A stretch of 64,000 nt of DNA, taken from Escherichia phage vB_EcoM-ZQ1. A program made the position numbers and the translations under genes. The notes under the pieces were generated by a model that worked only from the letters and a program-made list of their open reading frames with translations, had not been told where the DNA came from and made no database searches. Positions 44,406 to 61,393 of this stretch are shown here, piece by piece. Positions within the stretch are counted from its first letter, which is position 1. Every line of letters begins with the position of its first letter. Location of the stretch: the sequence record MW650886.1; one strand, written 5' to 3'.

Positions 44406-46016
44406 ATGTTAGACAATATGAGATGGTTTTACGGCACCGTTGAAGATGTCAACGATCCAGACCAAAACGGGCGAGTTGCTGTTCGCATATATGGCGTACA
44501 CACCGACGATCCCGTCCTCCTGCCTACGGACAAACTCCCATGGGCGAAGGTACTGATGCCTGCTTCAAACGCCTCCTCTGCTGGTTTAGGTTGGTCTCCA
44601 ACGGGTATCATTCCTGGTACTGAGGTTATGGGGTTCGCCCTTGACGAAGCATACCAGAATTTACGCATCACCTGGACTTGGACTGGTTCAAGTCCTACTG
44701 ATGGTGCCGACACAAACCCACTGGCTCTCGGGCAGGTCGTTCAATCTGTGGAACGTCAGGCGTACAACGCCGTCACTGACGTTCCTGTGAAACAAGAAGA
44801 CGAACCACAACCAGATCCACAACCACCTGTTGGCGGGTATGATCCAGAGAAGTGGATGACAATCGCTCGTGGCGAATTGGGTATCAAGGAGTACGCTGGA
44901 AAGTTCAACAACAACCCGCGCATTATAGAATATCACAAGACAACCTCCCTTGGTGCTTCTGAAGATGAAGTGTCGTGGTGTGCGGCGTTCGTGGGTTGGG
45001 TTATGATACAGGCTGGATACACGTCTACACGCTCCGCTCTTGCCCGATCTTACCTTACATGGGGCACTCCACTGTCAGCACCACAATATGGCGCTATCGT
45101 AGTCTTCCGGCGTGGTAACAACCCTACATTTGGACACGTAGCGTTTGTGCAGAAGTTCGATGCAAACTATGTCTGGTGTATTGGTGGCAACCAATCCGAT
45201 TCAGTGAAGGTTAGTCGTTTCAGACGTTCTTCGGTCTTGGGATATCGTTGGCCTGGTCCTGCTAACACAGCCACAGCCGTGCCTGCGCAGCAGAATGGTA
45301 AATGGTCAGAACCTATCCCAGATCGTACTCCAAAGGAACAACCGACTCCGGCTCCTACTGGGCGAGTACAGGATATTGACAACACTGGAGAAACCATGGT
45401 TCCGGCTGCGGGTGGCTCCAAATACCCGTACAATAACGTCATGGTGTCCCGAGCTGGGCATATTATGGAAGTGGATGACACCCCTGGTGGTGAACGTCTT
45501 CATTGGATGCATAAGTCTGGGTCTTACAAGCAAATGTTGCCGGATGGTGATGTGGTCAACAAGTCCGTCAAAGACCACTATGACCTGACGATGTTCAACA
45601 AGCGTTATTATGTCGGCGGGGACCACAACCTGACGGTCAAAGGAACTGAAGTTCAGCGCAAGACAGGTGAGGTCTATCATTTGCATTCCAACAACTACTC
45701 AAATGTGGTTGCGGGCACAGCGCTGATGAAATTCAGTGACCTAGCGGAAATGCAAGCGCAGAATATTCTGCGCATTATCTGCGAGACTCTGGAGGTCGGC
45801 GGGACATTGAAGGTTCCTAAGATTCTAACGACTGAGATCATCGCTGACAAACTGACTGTCGCTCAGACGATCAATGGTAACATCATATATGCCGAAGGTG
45901 CTGGTCGCGCTTCTTCTCTGTCAGGTGCAACCCCTGCATCCCCTACGGGTCCGGGTGAGATTGACATCAAGGCAGAATTAAAAGACAATGGTGGTAATTT
46001 CGGCACCAAAGAGTAA
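44406..46016 (+). CDS. baseplate central hub / cell-puncturing protein (gp5-like) with CHAP/NlpC-P60-type peptidase domain
   Basis: N-terminal gp5-type OB segment (WFYGTVEDVNDPDQNGRVAVRIYGVHTDD...LPWAKV); central Cys/His peptidase-like region (SWCAAFVGWVM ... GHVAFV); C-terminal repeat-rich region. Confidence 0.65.
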   Translation: MLDNMRWFYGTVEDVNDPDQNGRVAVRIYGVHTDDPVLLPTDKLPWAKVLMPASNASSAGLGWSPTGIIPGTEVMGFALDEAYQNLRITWTWTGSSPTDGADTNPLALGQVVQSVERQAYNAVTDVPVKQEDEPQPDPQPPVGGYDPEKWMTIARGELGIKEYAGKFNNNPRIIEYHKTTSLGASEDEVSWCAAFVGWVMIQAGYTSTRSALARSYLTWGTPLSAPQYGAIVVFRRGNNPTFGHVAFVQKFDANYVWCIGGNQSDSVKVSRFRRSSVLGYRWPGPANTATAVPAQQNGKWSEPIPDRTPKEQPTPAPTGRVQDIDNTGETMVPAAGGSKYPYNNVMVSRAGHIMEVDDTPGGERLHWMHKSGSYKQMLPDGDVVNKSVKDHYDLTMFNKRYYVGGDHNLTVKGTEVQRKTGEVYHLHSNNYSNVVAGTALMKFSDLAEMQAQNILRIICETLEVGGTLKVPKILTTEIIADKLTVAQTINGNIIYAEGAGRASSLSGATPASPTGPGEIDIKAELKDNGGNFGTKE

Positions 46017-51843: not shown

Positions 51844-52638
51844 TTAACTGAAACTCTTGTATGCTGCTGCGAGCTTCTTGTCGTACTGGTTCTTGGCATA
51901 CGCCGGACCATTATAGCGCCGTGCAAATTCAGACCAGTTCTTGTCCTTCAGAGCCTTCCAGAGCTTGGCGTCAGCCTTGATGAACTTCACGAATGCCATC
52001 AAATGAGCACGTTCTCCTGTCAGGAAGTCGTTGAACATCTCCTTGGCGTTGGCATATCCACAGACCTGGCAGTTGAATCCCATGATCTGGAAGAGACCGT
52101 AAGAGGCGCTCTCGTACGCACAATCCTCATCGATGTTGATGGCCGCATGAAGTCGATCCAACTCCGCGTCGCCTCCCGTGTACCCGCCTGCGGAAGGACT
52201 GACCAACGTCGGGTACATATGTCCCATGGCATTCGCCCGAGCCTGTCCGAACTTCGCCATCAGCTTCTTATACATGATGTGACGCTCAAATAATGTCTTG
52301 ATCTTACCTGACTTGGTGAAGCCCGTGCCGCGCGACTCAACCTGATTCACCGCCTTGACAGAGGCAAGGTCAACACCCAGATCATTAGCAGCATCAATCA
52401 GGTCTGACTCAGTTAAATGATCCTGATGGGCGTCTCCGGCGTTGCGAATAGCATAGGAGGTCTTTGGACCCACGATACCATCAATGACAAGCCCCGCACC
52501 CGCCTGAACAGTCTTGACGGCGTTCTCTGTTGCCTTACCAAAGATGCCGTCAGCGACGAGGGTGAAGCCGATTTTGTTGAGGCTATCCTGAAGTGCCTTC
52601 ACTTCAGTACCACGGTTGCCAAATTTTAGAATGGCCAT
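51844..52638 (-). CDS. endolysin: N-terminal peptidoglycan-binding repeats plus C-terminal muramidase-like domain
   Basis: ATG at 52638 with GGAGG RBS; two PG_binding_1-like repeats (GTEVKALQDSLNKIGF ... FGKATENAVKTVQ); C-terminal catalytic-like domain (YGLFQIMGFN). Confidence 0.65.
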   Translation of the reverse strand: MAILKFGNRGTEVKALQDSLNKIGFTLVADGIFGKATENAVKTVQAGAGLVIDGIVGPKTSYAIRNAGDAHQDHLTESDLIDAANDLGVDLASVKAVNQVESRGTGFTKSGKIKTLFERHIMYKKLMAKFGQARANAMGHMYPTLVSPSAGGYTGGDAELDRLHAAINIDEDCAYESASYGLFQIMGFNCQVCGYANAKEMFNDFLTGERAHLMAFVKFIKADAKLWKALKDKNWSEFARRYNGPAYAKNQYDKKLAAAYKSFS

Positions 52639-52700
52639 AAGAAAATACCTCCACAATGAATGTAGAGGTATTTAAAGTGAAAGTGAACTGACTTTGAGGA

Positions 52701-53244: not shown

Positions 53245-53733
53245 TTATGCCAGTTTGCTCACCAGAGCTTCAACTGCGTCGGCGCTCAGTTTACCCATTT
53301 TGACGTACTGAGCTTTTGCTTCGCCACCAACAGCTTTCACGATGTCGGTGTTGTCGTACCCCTTCTTAGGGAAGACCATCACAGAGAAGGAACCGTTGTT
53401 CAGCGGGTTCAGCTGGATGCGACCTTTACCGACTACGATGGTGCCGTAAGTTTCGGTGCTTGCTTCGACAATGTGGATGTCGTGACCCAGGTTTTTCAGC
53501 ATACCAACTTTGTCGGCAGTCTTAGCAACCACAGCTTTATCAACCACAACCTGCTCTACCAGGGTGAAGCCGTTAGTCACTTTCACTTTACCGTTCAGCA
53601 GGTTCATGAAGGAAGTTTTACCACCAGTGAAGCCAGCTGCCTGAGCGATGCGGAACATTTCAACTTTAGCAACTTCGGTGTTCAGTTCGAAAGAGATGGT
53701 GCCGTTGGTGATCAGAGTTTTGGTAGTAGCCAT
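53245..53733 (-). CDS. hypothetical protein, monocistronic with its own promoter and terminator (likely highly expressed)
   Basis: ATG at 53733 (MATTKTLI...) with GAGGA RBS; promoter-like hexamers upstream, terminator downstream. Confidence 0.45.
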   Translation of the reverse strand: MATTKTLITNGTISFELNTEVAKVEMFRIAQAAGFTGGKTSFMNLLNGKVKVTNGFTLVEQVVVDKAVVAKTADKVGMLKNLGHDIHIVEASTETYGTIVVGKGRIQLNPLNNGSFSVMVFPKKGYDNTDIVKAVGGEAKAQYVKMGKLSADAVEALVSKLA

Positions 53734-53806
53734 GATGTAATTCCTCATAATGTAGTTGGTGCGTTTCACTTTTCATTCGGCGGTGTGTTGCCGCCCTATG
53801 TGAACT

Positions 53807-53835
53807 ATAATAGTGCATCATTATTGAAGAGTAAA
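53807..53835 (-). promoter_or_regulatory. promoter candidate (TTTACT -35, 17-nt spacer, TATTAT -10) preceded by a strongly AT-rich tract
   Basis: hexamers and spacing read on the reverse complement. Confidence 0.4.
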
Positions 53836-53867
53836 GTCTTTTTCAATAATTTTTAAAAATTATTTTT

Positions 53868-53902
53868 GAAGTATTTTAAAAGGCCTCGTCGAATGAGGCC
53901 TG
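53868..53902 (-). terminator. rho-independent terminator on the minus strand (aggcctc-N7-gaggcct then TTTTAAAA)
   Basis: 7-bp stem read directly, downstream of the stop at 53930. Confidence 0.5.
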
Positions 53903-56204: not shown

Positions 56205-56212
56205 TATTTATA
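56205..56212 (-). promoter_or_regulatory. T4 late-promoter box TATAAATA (minus strand)
   Basis: exact match on the reverse complement, immediately after the upstream terminator hairpin. Confidence 0.5.
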
Positions 56213-56236: not shown

Positions 56237-59200
56237 TCAGATCTTAATCTGCATGTTGCCACCCAGGGACTGCTCGTACTCGCTGTATGCGCCTTCCCCG
56301 TAGTCTCGTGCCCACTGGTCAGACTGCTGGGCGCTATCCAGAGTCATCAGGTTTGGTTCAGTCGGGTTGTAACCCTTGGACTTCGCATCCCGGTACAGAG
56401 TCTGCAGGTACTGGTTGGCGCGGTCAATCTGAGCTTTGAACTCGCGATATGCCCCTTCAGTTGTGTTGCGGCGGAAGGTGATATCCCAGTCCACGTTCAG
56501 AGTCTGACCATCACGGCTTGCATAGATCTGCCAATCCAGGTCGCGGCCTTTTGGTGCGTTGTCGCGGATGGAGTCGGCGTATGCCGCAAGGTCGTCCTTC
56601 GGATTGTGCGACGTGCTTTTCAGAAGTAGTGCATGACCCATACCACCGTTTGGCTCAAGAGACCATTTTCCTGTTTCTCTTCCCAGGCGTTCTATGTTGT
56701 TGAGTTGGTTTATCGACAATTCAGAAGAGTCAAATAATACCACATCACGTTTTTTGGGGGTTCTCACATAAGGGGTGAGATCAATGTCGATCATCCGGTT
56801 TATAAATTCTACCACTTCAGCTTGTTTCTTTGGCAATGTGGTATTGATATCCGGCTTGTTTGCCACTTTCTCTAGGCGTTTATTTTCTGCGCTTATCATG
56901 GACAGCATAATTTGTGTAACTTTGCCGTCAGACAAGTTGTAATCATTCCAAATCACTTCACCTTTATCCGTGATGGTTATATCGTTCAAGAACACCTGGT
57001 TTGGGTTGTATGACTGACTTTTCAACTGTTGGAGGTTTCTGGAAAGATATACCATTTTTGATGAAATCTCATCAATCACACTCTGGACCATATCTTTGTT
57101 TAAAGGAAGTTCATATGTCTTCGGATTGTTCAGGGTACGCCCTTTCTGAGAGACAATTGGGGTGAATGCAACTTTACCTTTGTCGTAGTAATAGGTCACG
57201 TTGGTTATCATAGAAGTACCGGCGTATTTTCCCGTTTCGGGGAAATTGACATCCCACCGAATGGACATGCCGTTGACAGTCTCACCAAACACCATGGCGT
57301 TGCTTGGTATCTTCAGGGTTCCAGAGTTGACCAGATCAGCGCCTTGGGCATTCAGGTCGATAGAACCATAGATAGCCCCGGTAATACGATCTTTCAACAT
57401 CAGGGTCTTGTCGCCCTTCTCTGGGATGATTTCCAGCGGGTGCTTGCCACGCGGAGGTTCTTTGATGAGTTCCAGTAGAGCAGTTTTCCCTGGTTTCACA
57501 CGATTCAGGACAGCGTCGGACACTGTCAGAGTCCAGTTTGCGGTTTCCACATAACCCCAGCCCCGAGAACGGCGAATGGCTTTGATAGGATATGGAGCGC
57601 TTGTTGGCACTGCGCTAATTTCCCATTTGCCAGTGTACTGGGTCTTGGCAACCTCAAAGATGGACGCAATTACTGCATTGGCGACGTCACGGGCGCTACC
57701 TTTGGCCACGTTCTCCTCTTCAGCAATTTCGCTGAAAACTGAGTATTGAACGAAACCAGCGAGGACGTTTGTGAAGTTGACAACGATAACCAACCCGCCT
57801 GCTGTCGTGTAACGACCAGCGCCCACACGACGGATGTTTTCACCAGGAAGAATAGAAGTGTCCAACCCAACGTTGGTATCAATGATACCCAGAACACGAG
57901 CGATGAAACCACTGTCACGTAATTGATCAACACTGGTTGCACCCTCGGTCGAATCCGATGCGGATTTAGACACTTTGTTCAACTTGATAGAGACAAGGGT
58001 TTCCCCGTTGACACCGATGATATCCCATTCAGTACCCTGCTCGTTCGAGGTGCGGGCAATCTTGCGCTTTGAATTGATGGCACCTTCGTAACGCCCGTTC
58101 TTGACCACAACAGAGGCAGTAGCAGCATCAGTCGCACTTGCTGCATTTGAAAAGTCTGGGTCAGAAATACTGATGTCGACGTCACCGTTTTGAGAACGCA
58201 TGCGAACACCGTTTTTGAATCGTTCAACGTTTACTTCTCGAGCACCAAGTCGTTTGGCATCAATAACAGCAGTTCCAGAACCGATAATGTTGGCTGGGTT
58301 ATTTCTGTCTGAACTGTTTTGAGAACCTTTCCAAAATTTTGTAGACGCCATGGTGAAATCATTCAGGATATTGATAGGGACTTGCGGTAATTTCAACTGA
58401 CGAGCAATGAAATCAGCACTTTGCCCACGCACAGGTTTCTCATTCATGTATGCGCCAACATACACGCCCGGCTCATTGTAGTGGGGAGCGATATTTGCCG
58501 TGTTCGTGCGGCCTCTCTCCTTACCAGCCCATAACAACATGGGCTGATCCCCGTTTGAAGTTAATTTCCATCCGTTGCCATTGCTGGTGTCATTGCTGGT
58601 GTCATTGCTGGTGTCAACGTCCACCACCAGAATTATCTGAGCACCTTTCTTGAAAGTGTACTGATCGTACATACCTTTCTTCTGTTTGGTCATGGACGCA
58701 CCGACCAAGTCTTGGTTGGTGAAGCCGCGCTTCATATTCCAAGATACCTCAGTCCCGTCTGGATATTTGTCAAAATCATAACCATAGAATGTGGCTACTT
58801 CTTTCGAACCGCTTATCAGACGGACGTAATTTCCACGAATCGGGTCTCGCCCGCTCTTCAACTCCAGACCAGTGTCCGAGCTGTTGTACCACTCGCGGTT
58901 GACTTCTATTTCAGAAGAACCAGCCCCAACTCCCACATCCGGAGTATTGTTCTGAACCGGAACGTCACCGACTTTGTCTGGATCATCCCAGGTGATACCC
59001 TGCATCTTCGGACCGTCGAATACCTGAGCCGGATCTTTACCCTTACGAACTAGCCACACATAACCACGGTCAGGAACAGGCGCGTAGGTCAGGTCCATGA
59101 CGTTCAGTTTCTGCTTCAGGCCGGACTGGCGGATGATCTTAGGAATCAGGGTCATACCGCGATCCAGCGCTTTCTTAGAGAAGTTGACAGCAAAGCCATC

Positions 59201-59527
59201 GATGGTCTTACCCAGAGGGGTCGCCATGAATTGTTTGGTCGCTTCGATCATGGAAGCGATAACGCGCATTGGGTTCTTGAAGCGAGCGATGGCGTCAGGA
59301 TAGACGGAGCCGCGCTTCTGGCCGATGAAAACCTGACGAACGCTCTTGCCCAGCCCCTGAGGAGTATAGAACTGAATGCGGTATTCCTTATCATCTTCGT
59401 CGACGAAGGTAAAGAACACATCGCCTGCGTTCTTCTTACCCATGGTCAGCTCATACGGAGCGGAGTTGAACGCTTCGTCTAACTGATCTCTTTCCTGCAT
59501 GAACTGGAGGAAACTTAGCTTTGACAT
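56237..59527 (-). CDS. large hypothetical protein (1096 aa), possibly virion-associated
   Basis: long uninterrupted ORF with AGGAGAT RBS; contains in-frame (TSND)n repeat; no catalytic motif recognised. Confidence 0.6.
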   Translation of the reverse strand: MSKLSFLQFMQERDQLDEAFNSAPYELTMGKKNAGDVFFTFVDEDDKEYRIQFYTPQGLGKSVRQVFIGQKRGSVYPDAIARFKNPMRVIASMIEATKQFMATPLGKTIDGFAVNFSKKALDRGMTLIPKIIRQSGLKQKLNVMDLTYAPVPDRGYVWLVRKGKDPAQVFDGPKMQGITWDDPDKVGDVPVQNNTPDVGVGAGSSEIEVNREWYNSSDTGLELKSGRDPIRGNYVRLISGSKEVATFYGYDFDKYPDGTEVSWNMKRGFTNQDLVGASMTKQKKGMYDQYTFKKGAQIILVVDVDTSNDTSNDTSNGNGWKLTSNGDQPMLLWAGKERGRTNTANIAPHYNEPGVYVGAYMNEKPVRGQSADFIARQLKLPQVPINILNDFTMASTKFWKGSQNSSDRNNPANIIGSGTAVIDAKRLGAREVNVERFKNGVRMRSQNGDVDISISDPDFSNAASATDAATASVVVKNGRYEGAINSKRKIARTSNEQGTEWDIIGVNGETLVSIKLNKVSKSASDSTEGATSVDQLRDSGFIARVLGIIDTNVGLDTSILPGENIRRVGAGRYTTAGGLVIVVNFTNVLAGFVQYSVFSEIAEEENVAKGSARDVANAVIASIFEVAKTQYTGKWEISAVPTSAPYPIKAIRRSRGWGYVETANWTLTVSDAVLNRVKPGKTALLELIKEPPRGKHPLEIIPEKGDKTLMLKDRITGAIYGSIDLNAQGADLVNSGTLKIPSNAMVFGETVNGMSIRWDVNFPETGKYAGTSMITNVTYYYDKGKVAFTPIVSQKGRTLNNPKTYELPLNKDMVQSVIDEISSKMVYLSRNLQQLKSQSYNPNQVFLNDITITDKGEVIWNDYNLSDGKVTQIMLSMISAENKRLEKVANKPDINTTLPKKQAEVVEFINRMIDIDLTPYVRTPKKRDVVLFDSSELSINQLNNIERLGRETGKWSLEPNGGMGHALLLKSTSHNPKDDLAAYADSIRDNAPKGRDLDWQIYASRDGQTLNVDWDITFRRNTTEGAYREFKAQIDRANQYLQTLYRDAKSKGYNPTEPNLMTLDSAQQSDQWARDYGEGAYSEYEQSLGGNMQIKI
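58579..58614. repeat. 12-bp tandem repeat, three perfect copies (cattgctggtgt), in frame inside the 1096-aa ORF, encoding (TSND)3
   Basis: copies at 58579-58590, 58591-58602, 58603-58614 with partial copies flanking. Confidence 0.8.
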
Positions 59528-60044: not shown

Positions 60045-60683
60045 TTACGGCGTCGGATTCACAACCGGAATGTGGGATCGAATACCTGCGATGATGTCCT
60101 TCAGCCGAGGATTCCATCCACCCACCAAACGGGGGAGAGCGATAGCGCCAGGCTGGACCAAAATGATGTCGCTGCCTGTGATATTGTGCTGAGGGAACTG
60201 AGCAAGGTACTGCTCCATGGCGACACCCTCATCAATCAGAACAGGACCGACATCAGATGACGCGTAGGTTGCACCCAGACCGTCAACGCCCCATGCCAAG
60301 ATACCCCAGTCAGGGATGTTGGCTTCAGATGTGATGGTGAATCCAAACACGGTGTTCAGCGAAGTAAAGGAATAGACATCGTGGGTGATGTCATACACCA
60401 GATACCCCTTGGCCAGCATATCGGCAAAGATCGCGTCCGTATCGCCAACAGCCGGAGTCGGCACAGTAAACAACAGCTCGCCATCAGGAGGAGCAGGATA
60501 CGTGCCGAGGGCATAGAGGCACCATGCATCAATGCACTTCTTAATGAACGCCTCTGGCGCGACATAATCAGCAAGGCGAACCGTACCTGAGTACTCTGAT
60601 ACGATAATGCCTTCCTTCGCACCCTGTAGAGCAATGAAGACCAAGATATGTTCATATCCGGCCTGAGATGGAGTGATGTTCAT
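60045..60683 (-). CDS. hypothetical protein
   Basis: start set at ATG 60683 (MNITPSQ...), TGATG-coupled to the upstream gene stop; ORF-track start 60779 overlaps the upstream CDS. Confidence 0.4.
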   Translation of the reverse strand: MNITPSQAGYEHILVFIALQGAKEGIIVSEYSGTVRLADYVAPEAFIKKCIDAWCLYALGTYPAPPDGELLFTVPTPAVGDTDAIFADMLAKGYLVYDITHDVYSFTSLNTVFGFTITSEANIPDWGILAWGVDGLGATYASSDVGPVLIDEGVAMEQYLAQFPQHNITGSDIILVQPGAIALPRLVGGWNPRLKDIIAGIRSHIPVVNPTP

Positions 60684-61297
60684 TATCTTGTCCTCTTCAG
60701 TTTCTCTATTGTGTGCTTGTTCATGGCGATCACCTGAGGATCTACCTCGGAGATGGTCCGGCCTTCGAAAGACACACATTTCTGAAGATATTTAGCTTTC
60801 TTCACGACGTCGGCAGCATAAGCGTTCGATGCAGGATTACGGGCGAAGCCAGCATTGTAAGAGGAGAGGGATTTGCGGATATTCTGATTGTGATAGGTCA
60901 GCCAGAACTGCATCTCATCGAGGGCGGCTTGCGCGGCATATTCTTGGTCGGTCAGCAACTTTATGGCGACATTGGCATAGCACTTGCGATTCTTACAACC
61001 TTCGCGATCACCAACTGTCTTCACCTTGTTCTGAAAGGCTCCCATGTTGGCCGCCTTGAGACCGTATCGCATTGACACTACATCTTCACCAGCGCGGCTC
61101 TCTCGCCAAGATATGGCGGCCAGAGTGTAGCCAAGATCTTGTGTCTTGCCTACGTGATAGGCGGTTGCCATCGTATTAAGTTGTTGCTCGGAGAAATTAT
61201 AAACACATTGACTTGTATTTTGGGAAGCGTGCACATTCCCGCTGGCAATGGTAAAGGTCACGGACAAGGCCATGGCCTTCAACGTTGTCATCGTCAT
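60683..61297 (-). CDS. soluble lytic transglycosylase (SLT-domain) with N-terminal signal peptide
   Basis: N-terminal signal-like MTMTTLKAMALSVTFTIASGNVHAS; SLT motifs ISWRESRAGED (E-S) and SSYNAGFA (Y-N-x-G). Confidence 0.55.
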   Translation of the reverse strand: MTMTTLKAMALSVTFTIASGNVHASQNTSQCVYNFSEQQLNTMATAYHVGKTQDLGYTLAAISWRESRAGEDVVSMRYGLKAANMGAFQNKVKTVGDREGCKNRKCYANVAIKLLTDQEYAAQAALDEMQFWLTYHNQNIRKSLSSYNAGFARNPASNAYAADVVKKAKYLQKCVSFEGRTISEVDPQVIAMNKHTIEKLKRTR

Positions 61298-61349
61298 GAT
61301 GGCGTTCCTTATGTTTGTCGACTTGCAGCTCGATTGAGCCTCCTGACAG

Positions 61350-61386
61350 GGGTTAAAAGATAAAGGGCACGTGATATTTAGTGCCC
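61350..61386 (-). terminator. rho-independent terminator on the minus strand (gggcac stem then TTTATCTTTTAAC)
   Basis: read directly, downstream of the stop at 61394. Confidence 0.5.
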
Positions 61387-61393
61387 TTCAGCC

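What the first reader, a model, noticed from the sequence alone, without database searches (positions are those of the whole stretch)
60683..61297. Signal-peptide SLT-domain transglycosylase in addition to a separate endolysin
The window encodes three distinct cell-wall hydrolase candidates: the CHAP-type hub domain, a PG-binding endolysin (51844-52638) and this SLT-domain protein with an apparently cleavable signal peptide. A Sec-exported transglycosylase in a lytic phage could be a secreted lysis enzyme or a periplasmic factor for superinfection or cell-wall remodelling.
Basis: partly seen in the sequence, partly recalled or inferred. Interest (0 to 1): 0.45.

Follow-up and report, generated by a model that had tools for sequence, protein, structure and literature searches.

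The report
Exported phage wall-cutting enzyme (T4 Vs.1 family)
This phage gene encodes a small cell-wall-cutting enzyme with an export signal; it is the counterpart of phage T4's long-known but never-characterised Vs.1 protein, so the feature is real and already catalogued, but what it does during infection is still unknown.

Summary
The ORF at 60683..61297 on the minus strand (204 aa) is a real gene under strong purifying selection (dN/dS 0.08). It has a Sec-type signal peptide (cleavage most likely VHA|SQ after residue 24) and a lysozyme-like GH23/SLT fold. The family-1 lytic transglycosylase motifs are present: E66-S67, G86-A-F-Q, S146-Y-N-A-G and Y160. E66 is invariant in 128 of 128 homologues.

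The window comes from an Ackermannviridae phage and does encode three wall enzymes. These are a gp5-like hub with a CHAP domain, a cytoplasmic PG_binding_1+muramidase endolysin, and this exported enzyme.

It is not new. It is the orthologue of T4 Vs.1 (PHROG 600), found in more than 2,100 phage records. Its SLT similarity was published in 2006 (with an earlier PSI-BLAST report cited there). Many Ackermannviridae records mislabel it "RegB endoribonuclease" or truncate it.

Paired cysteines that co-vary across the family point to disulfides, which fits a periplasmic location. T4 vs.1 has early RNA and middle protein, and scored "Semi-Fit" in a knock-down screen. A holin-independent, pre-lysis wall-remodelling accessory enzyme is therefore more likely than a second endolysin, but this role is inferred, not shown.

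Side finding: about 155 nt spanning the leader and the signal-peptide codons are nearly invariant across four genera. This is unexplained.

The parts
60683..61297 (-). CDS of the Vs.1-like exported GH23/SLT enzyme (204 aa; predicted mature form 180 aa, 20.3 kDa, pI 9.4)
61226..61297 (-). Codons 1-24, predicted Sec/signal-peptidase-I signal peptide MTMTTLKAMALSVTFTIASGNVHA|SQ
   Evidence: Heuristic n/h/c analysis and the -3/-1 rule. Low pLDDT for residues 1-30. An N-terminal hydrophobic segment is present family-wide.
60812..61129 (-). SLT/GH23 catalytic core (residues 57-162) with motifs E66-S67, G86-A-F-Q89, S146-Y-N-A-G150 and Y160
61100..61102 (-). Codon GAG for the predicted catalytic Glu66, in the context W-R-E-S
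   Evidence: Read directly from the sequence. Invariant in 128/128 and 127/127 aligned homologues.
60686..60775 (-). 30-residue C-terminal extension (residues 175-204, ending KLKRTR). Only 21 of 128 family members have a tail of 25 aa or more here.
61305..61310 (-). Shine-Dalgarno AAGGAA, 7 nt before the ATG
61355..61389 (-). Terminator-like hairpin GAAGGGCAC-N10-GTGCCCTT followed by TATCTTTT, directly after the stop of the upstream gene (61394)
   Evidence: In Taipeivirus the stem is kept through an A-U to G-U change.
61221..61375 (-). Nucleotide island that is nearly invariant across genera: 3' arm of the hairpin, the leader, the SD and the signal-peptide codons
60045..60683 (-). Downstream DUF7270 / phrog_3923 gene. 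Its ATG overlaps the SLT stop codon (TAATG), so the two are probably translationally coupled.
51844..52638 (-). Context: canonical endolysin (PG_binding_1 + Muramidase PF11860, no signal peptide)
44406..46016 (+). Context: gp5-like baseplate hub with a CHAP domain (entry lysin)

Best explanation
The gene encodes the Ackermannviridae orthologue of phage T4 Vs.1. It is a small, single-domain lytic transglycosylase of glycoside-hydrolase family 23 (SLT type).

Proposed mechanism:
- The protein is made with a Sec signal peptide, exported across the inner membrane and cleaved by signal peptidase I, most likely after Ala24.
- It then folds in the periplasm as a soluble, basic protein of about 20 kDa, stabilised by two disulfides (Cys31-Cys174 and Cys101-Cys106).
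- There it cuts the MurNAc-GlcNAc bonds of the host sacculus, using Glu66 as the single acid/base catalyst.
- Because it reaches the wall through Sec, it does not need the holin.
- I infer that it is made before the late genes and acts as an accessory wall-remodelling or wall-loosening factor that improves phage fitness. It would not be the enzyme that executes lysis; that is the cytoplasmic PG_binding_1+muramidase endolysin.

Shown here: the ORF, its selective constraint, family membership, fold, catalytic motifs, signal-like N-terminus and cysteine covariation.

Inferred: actual export and cleavage, the disulfides, the chemistry of the product (anhydro-muropeptide versus hydrolysis), the timing of expression and the biological role.
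For: Identity:
- PHROG 600 match at E=3.8e-59.
- 32% identity to T4 Vs.1 at E=1e-18.
- The best BFVD fold matches are Vs.1-family phage proteins.

Fold and active site:
- AlphaFold pLDDT is 91.8, with residues 31-204 above 94.
- Foldseek finds GH23 chitinase, MltD, MltE and Slt70.
- The family profile hits EtgA at E=1.5e-5.
- E66, Y147, G150 and Y160 are invariant; S67, G70 and G86 are at least 90% conserved.

Export:
- The N-terminus has signal-like architecture with a 13-residue h-region and VHA|S.
- The filter passes only 1 of 75 other ORFs, and 151 of 182 homologues have a hydrophobic N-terminus.
- Cys31 and Cys174 are present or absent together (60 both, 10 one only, 58 neither; Fisher p=1e-24). 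Cys101 and Cys106 behave the same way (p=9e-18). Even cysteine counts dominate.

Selection: dN/dS is 0.084.

Timing and role:
- T4 vs.1 is classed as early RNA / middle protein (PMC9697503 supplements).
- T4 vs.1 is 'Semi-Fit' in the CRISPRi-ART screen and listed as of purely unknown function (PMC11879866 supplements).
- The gene shares a strand and cluster with the gp55, gp47, gp46 and nrd genes.
- The Felix O1-like homologue directly follows rIIA/rIIB.
- Late-promoter-like TATAAATA variants precede the endolysin, hub and tail-tube genes but not this gene.
Against: - The Pfam SLT score for this sequence is just below the gathering threshold.
- No dedicated signal-peptide predictor was available. 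The h-region is only moderately hydrophobic (mean Kyte-Doolittle 1.87, lower than in most homologues).
- Timing is borrowed from T4. No Ackermannviridae transcriptome was found.
- The late-promoter motif is not enriched in the window overall (19 matches against 23 expected), so its absence upstream of this gene is weak evidence.
- The T4 fitness effect is marginal (score 0.81, KS p about 0.1).
- The position matching lysozyme Asp52 / EtgA Asp60 varies in the family (S 74, D 27, A 16, N 7; the query has N84). Lytic transglycosylase versus muramidase chemistry therefore cannot be told from sequence.
- No experiment on any family member was found in the searchable literature.
Confidence: 0.6

Rival explanations
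1. It is a second, Sec-secreted endolysin or auxiliary lysis enzyme. It would accumulate in the periplasm and contribute to wall destruction at the end of the cycle, like the signal-peptide or SAR endolysins of other phages.
For: It is exported and muralytic by prediction. Nolan et al. 2006 suggested 'some role in cell lysis' for vs.1. The endolysin lies on the same strand about 8 kb away.
Against: - T4 vs.1 has early RNA and middle protein.
- The gene is not next to lysis genes.
- A complete cytoplasmic endolysin is present.
- No late-promoter-like motif lies upstream, although one lies before the endolysin.
- The h-region is 13 residues with an AXA-type site, so it is not a SAR anchor.
- From established T4 genetics (my own knowledge): e-minus mutants do not lyse although vs.1 is intact.
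Confidence: 0.2
2. It is a periplasmic factor for superinfection exclusion or inter-phage competition. It would alter the sacculus so that later-arriving phages cannot inject productively.
For: It would be periplasmic and expressed early by inference, as are T4 Imm and Sp (for timing). The Felix O1-like copy sits beside rIIA/rIIB, which are early envelope-associated genes.
Against: There is no direct evidence. Cutting glycan strands should ease tail penetration rather than hinder it. The invariant catalytic Glu argues for catalysis rather than for a blocking protein. No defence or anti-defence family match was found.
Confidence: 0.1
3. It is a virion-borne entry enzyme, like T7 gp16 or phiKZ gp181, that opens the wall during DNA injection.
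For: SLT domains are common in virion proteins; tape-measure and internal-core proteins appear among the distant fold hits. One record labels the downstream gene 'structural protein'.
Against: A cleavable Sec signal and paired cysteines place it outside the cytoplasm, where virions are assembled. The phage already has a gp5-like CHAP hub for entry. The protein is a small single domain with no structural-protein module.
Confidence: 0.03
4. It is a RegB-type endoribonuclease, as many database records of Ackermannviridae phages state.
For: Source names such as 'endoribonuclease RegB family protein' and 'RegB site-specific RNA endonuclease' are attached to this family.
Against: There is no similarity to T4 RegB (best E=0.56), but there is clear similarity to its neighbour T4 Vs.1 (E=1e-18). 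The fold is lysozyme-like. The label is most simply an off-by-one transfer from the adjacent T4 genes vs.1 and regB.
Confidence: 0.01

Closest known systems
Phage T4 Vs.1 (gene vs.1, T4p112, UniProt P13311; PHROG 600), with its homologues in Straboviridae and Felix O1-like phages
   Same: Same family: E=1e-18, 32% identity, full-length PHROG match. Both have an N-terminal signal-like segment and the same E-S / G-x-F-Q / S-Y-N-x-G / Y motifs. Both are small single-domain proteins encoded among early or middle genes.
   Different: T4 Vs.1 has none of the four cysteines and is 181 aa. The Ackermannviridae form adds the Cys31-Cys174 and Cys101-Cys106 pairs and a 30-residue basic C-terminal extension. 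The neighbouring genes differ: regB and vs in T4, phrog_4165 and DUF7270 here.
Specialised lytic transglycosylases of secretion systems (EtgA of the EPEC type III system, PDB 8urn/4xp8; the IagB/IpgF/VirB1 type)
   Different: There is no secretion apparatus or rod-protein partner in the neighbourhood. EtgA's auxiliary Asp60 aligns with Asn84 here. The host is a virulent phage.
Catalytic domains of E. coli / Pseudomonas family-1 lytic transglycosylases (Slt70, MltC, MltE, MltF, MltD)
   Different: It lacks the superhelical, LysM or ABC-like accessory domains. It is not a lipoprotein, as there is no lipobox. Sequence identity is only 11-17%.
Sec-exported phage endolysins (signal-peptide Lys44 of fOg44; SAR endolysins such as P1 Lyz and phage 21 R)
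   Same: They are phage muralytic enzymes that reach the wall through Sec rather than through holin holes (my own knowledge of these systems).
   Different: Those are the phage's only endolysin, are late genes in lysis cassettes, and use a different fold or a non-cleaved SAR anchor. This protein coexists with a cytoplasmic endolysin, lies outside any lysis cassette, and has a short h-region with an AXA-type site.

Membership tests
SLT / GH23 family-1 lytic transglycosylase (Pfam PF01464) | Lysozyme-like alpha-helical fold | tested here: met
SLT / GH23 family-1 lytic transglycosylase (Pfam PF01464) | Catalytic Glu at the end of a helix, followed by Ser (motif I, E-S) | tested here: met
   E66-S67 lie at the end of helix 56-67. 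E66 is invariant; S67 is Ser in 122 of 128 and Thr in the rest.
SLT / GH23 family-1 lytic transglycosylase (Pfam PF01464) | Motifs II (G-L-M-Q), III (A-Y-N-x-G) and IV (conserved Tyr) | tested here: met
   The query has G86-A-F-Q89, S146-Y-N-A-G150 and Y160. G86 is at least 90% conserved; Y147, G150 and Y160 are invariant. The motif definitions are from my own knowledge of the family-1 literature.
SLT / GH23 family-1 lytic transglycosylase (Pfam PF01464) | Score above Pfam's gathering threshold | tested here: not met
   20.2 bits against a cut-off of 21.3 for this sequence. However, 73 of 127 family members match at E<0.01, the best at 1.5e-11.
SLT / GH23 family-1 lytic transglycosylase (Pfam PF01464) | Product is 1,6-anhydro-MurNAc (non-hydrolytic cleavage) | not testable with these tools
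   This needs enzymology. The position of lysozyme's second carboxylate is Asn84 here and varies in the family (S/D/A/N).
T4 Vs.1 family (PHROG 600) | Full-length profile match and pairwise similarity to T4 Vs.1 | tested here: met
   PHROG 600 at E=3.8e-59, residues 7-179 against profile positions 4-176 of 178. BLASTP to T4 Vs.1 at E=1e-18.
Sec / signal-peptidase-I secreted protein | n-h-c tripartite N-terminus with small residues at -3/-1 and no lipobox | tested here: met
   K7; a 13-residue h-region; V-H-A|S; no [LVI][ASTVI][GAS]C. This is heuristic only: 1 of 75 control ORFs passes the same filter.
Sec / signal-peptidase-I secreted protein | Demonstrated export and cleavage | not testable with these tools
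   Indirect support only, from covarying cysteine pairs.
SAR (signal-anchor-release) endolysin | Uncleaved, weakly hydrophobic N-terminal transmembrane segment of about 18-20 or more residues, in the phage's lysis enzyme | tested here: not met
   The uncharged hydrophobic run is 13 residues with an AXA-type site. A separate endolysin exists.
RegB endoribonuclease | Sequence similarity to T4 RegB | tested here: not met
   Best BLASTP E=0.56.
Specialised lytic transglycosylases of secretion systems (EtgA type) | Encoded within, and acting with, a type III or type IV secretion or similar envelope-spanning apparatus | tested here: not met
   The neighbours are phage replication genes and genes of unknown function. 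Only sequence and fold resemblance is met.

The most novel reading that the evidence does not exclude
Vs.1-type enzymes would form a distinct third class of phage wall enzyme, separate from entry lysins and endolysins. In this reading it is an early or middle, holin-independent, Sec-exported transglycosylase that conditions the sacculus during the latent period, for example to prepare rapid lysis, to let envelope-spanning phage complexes form, or to feed wall turnover. That would explain its retention in more than 2,100 large myovirus genomes and its partial fitness effect in T4. In four Ackermannviridae genera its expression would additionally be governed by a nucleotide-level element of about 155 nt covering the leader and the signal-peptide codons, a region where synonymous change is absent.
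Probability: 0.3. Interest if true: 0.6.

Novelty: already known. Interest (0 to 1): 0.3.

Why it matters
On its own this is a re-discovery. The protein is 100% identical to a deposited one. Its family (T4 Vs.1) has been predicted to carry an SLT domain since the 2003-2006 T4 genome papers.

There are two practical points:
- Many Ackermannviridae records call this gene 'RegB endoribonuclease' or annotate only a truncated form that lacks the signal peptide and the catalytic Glu. These annotations should be corrected.
- Vs.1 is one of the few widely conserved T4 genes of unknown function with a measurable fitness effect. The evidence assembled here gives a concrete, testable hypothesis for it: a confident fold, an invariant catalytic Glu, a family-wide export signal and covarying disulfide cysteines.

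If the pre-lysis periplasmic role is confirmed, it would add a step to the textbook picture of how large virulent phages handle the host wall.

Tried and rejected
- A direct sequence search of the PDB with the single protein found nothing. NCBIfam also found nothing.
- I looked for a conserved two-gene module. The downstream DUF7270 protein is unrelated to the downstream genes in T4 (vs) and in the Felix O1-like phage (a polynucleotide kinase), so there is no conserved partner.
- I suspected the gene was split or frameshifted in Shigella phage Ag3. The DNA is intact, so the split is an annotation error.
- I tested whether T4-type late promoters (TATAAATA) could time the gene. The motif sits before the hub, tail-tube and endolysin genes but is not enriched overall, so this is only weak evidence.
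- The sigma-70 promoter scan found no promoter upstream of the gene.
- I tested the conserved island as a structured RNA. There is no Rfam match, no unusual folding stability on either strand (z 0.5 and -0.1), and no repeat of its sequence elsewhere in the window.
- The PADLOC defence library gave no meaningful hit.
- Literature searches for any experiment on vs.1 or on an Ackermannviridae transcriptome found none. The BSPM4 ORF52 paper that surfaced concerns an unrelated antiholin.

Full report
**What is there**

The ORF at 60683..61297 lies on the minus strand and encodes 204 aa. It has an AAGGAA Shine-Dalgarno 7 nt before the first ATG. Its stop codon overlaps the ATG of the next gene (TAATG). 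That next gene is DUF7270 / phrog_3923 at 60045..60683.

The window is 97.8% identical over this region to Escherichia phage LHE287 and belongs to the Ackermannviridae. LHE287 encodes an identical protein.

The gene is under strong purifying selection. Against the Kuttervirus orthologue, dN is 0.118, dS is 1.40 and dN/dS is 0.084.

**Domain and fold**

For this sequence alone the Pfam SLT match is marginal: E=4.4e-4 and 20.2 bits against a cut-off of 21.3. The single sequence finds nothing in the PDB or in NCBIfam. The family view is unambiguous:
- PHROG 600 matches over the full length at E=3.8e-59.
- An exhaustive HMMER search finds 423 cluster representatives.
- 73 of 127 aligned members hit SLT individually, the best at 1.5e-11.
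- A profile of the alignment hits the type III secretion transglycosylase EtgA at E=1.5e-5, followed by weaker matches (E 0.03-0.9) to goose-type and C-type lysozymes among others.

E66, Y147, G150 and Y160 are invariant. Q39, G50, A61, I62, S67, G70, G86 and W132 are at least 90% conserved. These fall on the family-1 transglycosylase motifs E-S, G-x-F/M-Q, A/S-Y-N-x-G and the motif IV Tyr; the motif definitions are from my own knowledge. Codon 66 is GAG at 61100-61102.

The position that aligns with lysozyme Asp52 and EtgA Asp60 is Asn84 here. Across the family it is S 74, D 27, A 16 and N 7. Sequence therefore cannot decide between transglycosylase and muramidase chemistry.

**Export**

The N-terminus reads MTMTTLKAMALSVTFTIASGNVHA|SQNTSQC. 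It has one basic residue, a 13-residue uncharged core and a V-H-A|S site, and it has no lipobox. The core is too short for a membrane or SAR anchor.

The same crude filter passes only 1 of 75 other non-overlapping ORFs in the window. A hydrophobic N-terminal segment is a family trait, present in 151 of 182 homologues, with textbook examples in T4 Vs.1 and the Felix O1-like protein.

Independent support comes from the cysteines. Cys31 and Cys174 are present together in 60 sequences, alone in 10 and absent in 58 (Fisher p=1e-24). Cys101 and Cys106 behave the same way (p=9e-18). Even cysteine counts dominate. This is the pattern expected for disulfides, which form in the periplasm.

No dedicated signal-peptide predictor was available, so export remains an inference.

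**It is the T4 Vs.1 family**

The protein aligns with T4 Vs.1 at E=1e-18 and 32% identity. tblastn finds relatives in 2131 phage records. These include Straboviridae on Escherichia, Klebsiella, Acinetobacter, Aeromonas and Vibrio hosts, as well as Felix O1-like phages and Ackermannviridae.

Nolan et al. [quoted passage not shown] Several records and UniRef already name it an SLT-domain protein or lytic transglycosylase. The feature is therefore already known at the level of prediction.

I found no experimental characterisation. The family is not exclusive to phages. A Wolinella succinogenes homologue sits between glyS and a two-component system, with no phage genes around it.

**Database errors**

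Many Ackermannviridae records label this gene RegB endoribonuclease. It has no similarity to T4 RegB (E=0.56). In T4, vs.1 and regB are adjacent, which suggests an off-by-one transfer of the name.

In Ag3 and RC-2014 (and, from the length of its deposited protein, Bue1) only a short form from Met76 is annotated, and the CBA120 record marks an alternative start there. That form lacks both the signal peptide and Glu66. The Ag3 DNA is intact.

**The three wall enzymes**

- The hub at 44406..46016 (+) has Gp5_OB plus CHAP domains.
- The endolysin at 51844..52638 (-) has PG_binding_1 plus Muramidase PF11860 domains and no signal peptide.
- The third is the exported enzyme described here.

T4 has the same logic, with gp5, gpe and Vs.1 (my own knowledge for gp5 and e; for the gene map).

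**What it most likely does**

Several lines of evidence point to expression before the late phase:
- T4 vs.1 is classed as early RNA and middle protein (PMC9697503 supplements).
- In this phage and in Kuttervirus the gene lies on the strand and in the run that carries the gp55, gp47, gp46, primase and nrd genes, opposite to the baseplate and tail genes.
- In a Felix O1-like phage it directly follows rIIA/rIIB.
- TATAAATA-like motifs lie 24-34 nt before the tail-tube, hub and endolysin start codons but not before this gene. The motif is not enriched overall, so this is weak evidence.

T4 vs.1 knock-down scores "Semi-Fit" (0.81, KS p 0.099). The authors list it among five semi-fit T4 genes of purely unknown function (PMC11879866 supplements).

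Taken together, I favour a Sec-exported, holin-independent periplasmic transglycosylase. It would be made before lysis and would remodel or loosen the sacculus as a fitness-enhancing accessory. A second endolysin is less likely. No conserved partner gene was found, and no defence-related match was found. The biological purpose of the remodelling is not established.

**Side observation**

A stretch of about 155 nt (61221-61375) is 96-100% identical among Agtrevirus-like, Limestonevirus, Kuttervirus and Taipeivirus genomes, whereas the flanking coding sequence is 57-85% identical. It covers four elements:
- the 3' arm of the upstream terminator-like hairpin;
- the leader;
- the Shine-Dalgarno sequence;
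- the signal-peptide codons.

The first 24 codons show dS = 0, against dS about 2.5 for the rest of the gene. A 183-nt query is at least 90% identical in 266 of 272 records, while the surrounding 2.2 kb is 60-80% identical in 193 of 271.

Across the part of the window that aligns with Salmonella phage 38, only three blocks reach 95% identity. One of the others (53581-53880) consists of a terminator, a strong sigma-70-like promoter and the 5' end of a coding sequence.

The island has no Rfam match, no unusual RNA stability and no repeat elsewhere in the window. It is absent from Miltonvirus, where the intergenic gap is 11 nt. Its function is unexplained.

**Verdict**

The feature is a known kind, a T4 Vs.1 / GH23 exported enzyme, so its novelty is low. 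Its residual interest lies in the unresolved role of a very widely conserved gene and in the unexplained conserved leader.

Noticed in passing
window 61221-61375 (- strand): A nucleotide island is nearly invariant across four Ackermannviridae genera. It covers the 3' arm of the terminator hairpin, the leader (which contains CAGGAGGCTC), the SD and the first 24 codons of the SLT gene. Those 24 codons show dS = 0, against about 2.5 for the rest of the gene. There is no Rfam hit, no unusual RNA stability and no repeat elsewhere in the window.
   Followed up: partly
window 53581-53880 and 58601-58800 (- strand): These are the only other blocks at least 95% identical to Kuttervirus phage 38, against a mean of 75%. 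The first consists of a terminator hairpin, an AT-rich sigma-70-like promoter (TTTACT-17-TATTAT) and the 5' end of a phrog_3764 gene of unknown function. The second lies inside the 1096-aa ORF.
   Followed up: partly
database records of homologues (e.g. Dickeya phages Coodle and PP35, Salmonella phages Maynard and Marshall; Ag3 orf00114, CBA120 orf114, RC-2014, Bue1): There is systematic mis-annotation of this gene as 'RegB endoribonuclease'. Other records annotate a truncated form starting at Met76 that lacks the signal peptide and the catalytic Glu. The Ag3 DNA is intact.
   Followed up: yes
window 38251-38258 (+), 44364-44371 (+), 52669-52676 (-), 56205-56212 (-): T4-type late-promoter-like octamers (TATAAATA, CATAAATA, TTTAAATA) lie 24-34 nt upstream of the tail-tube, gp5-like hub, endolysin and a 101-aa gene. 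The motif count in the window is not above chance.
   Followed up: partly
window 56237-59527 (- strand): A 1096-aa ORF of unknown function (phrog_3867) contains a DTSN tandem repeat and has a short C-terminal match to an 'internal head protein' PHROG. It has no Pfam domain.
   Followed up: no
L008 8001-8747 (Wolinella succinogenes chromosome): A 248-aa cellular homologue of the Vs.1 family lies between glyS and a two-component system, with no phage genes nearby. The family therefore also has bacterial housekeeping members.
   Followed up: partly
L004 1-3465 (Felix O1-like Salmonella phage SUT_S920): The Vs.1 homologue directly follows the rIIA/rIIB-like genes and is followed by a polynucleotide kinase. 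Synteny with T4 and with Ackermannviridae is not conserved.
   Followed up: partly
window 60045-60683 (- strand): The DUF7270 / phrog_3923 gene appears translationally coupled to the SLT gene (TAATG overlap). One record calls it 'structural protein'. In Kuttervirus phage 38 only a 108-aa ORF is annotated at this position, and nucleotide similarity is lost over the 3' part of the gene.
   Followed up: no
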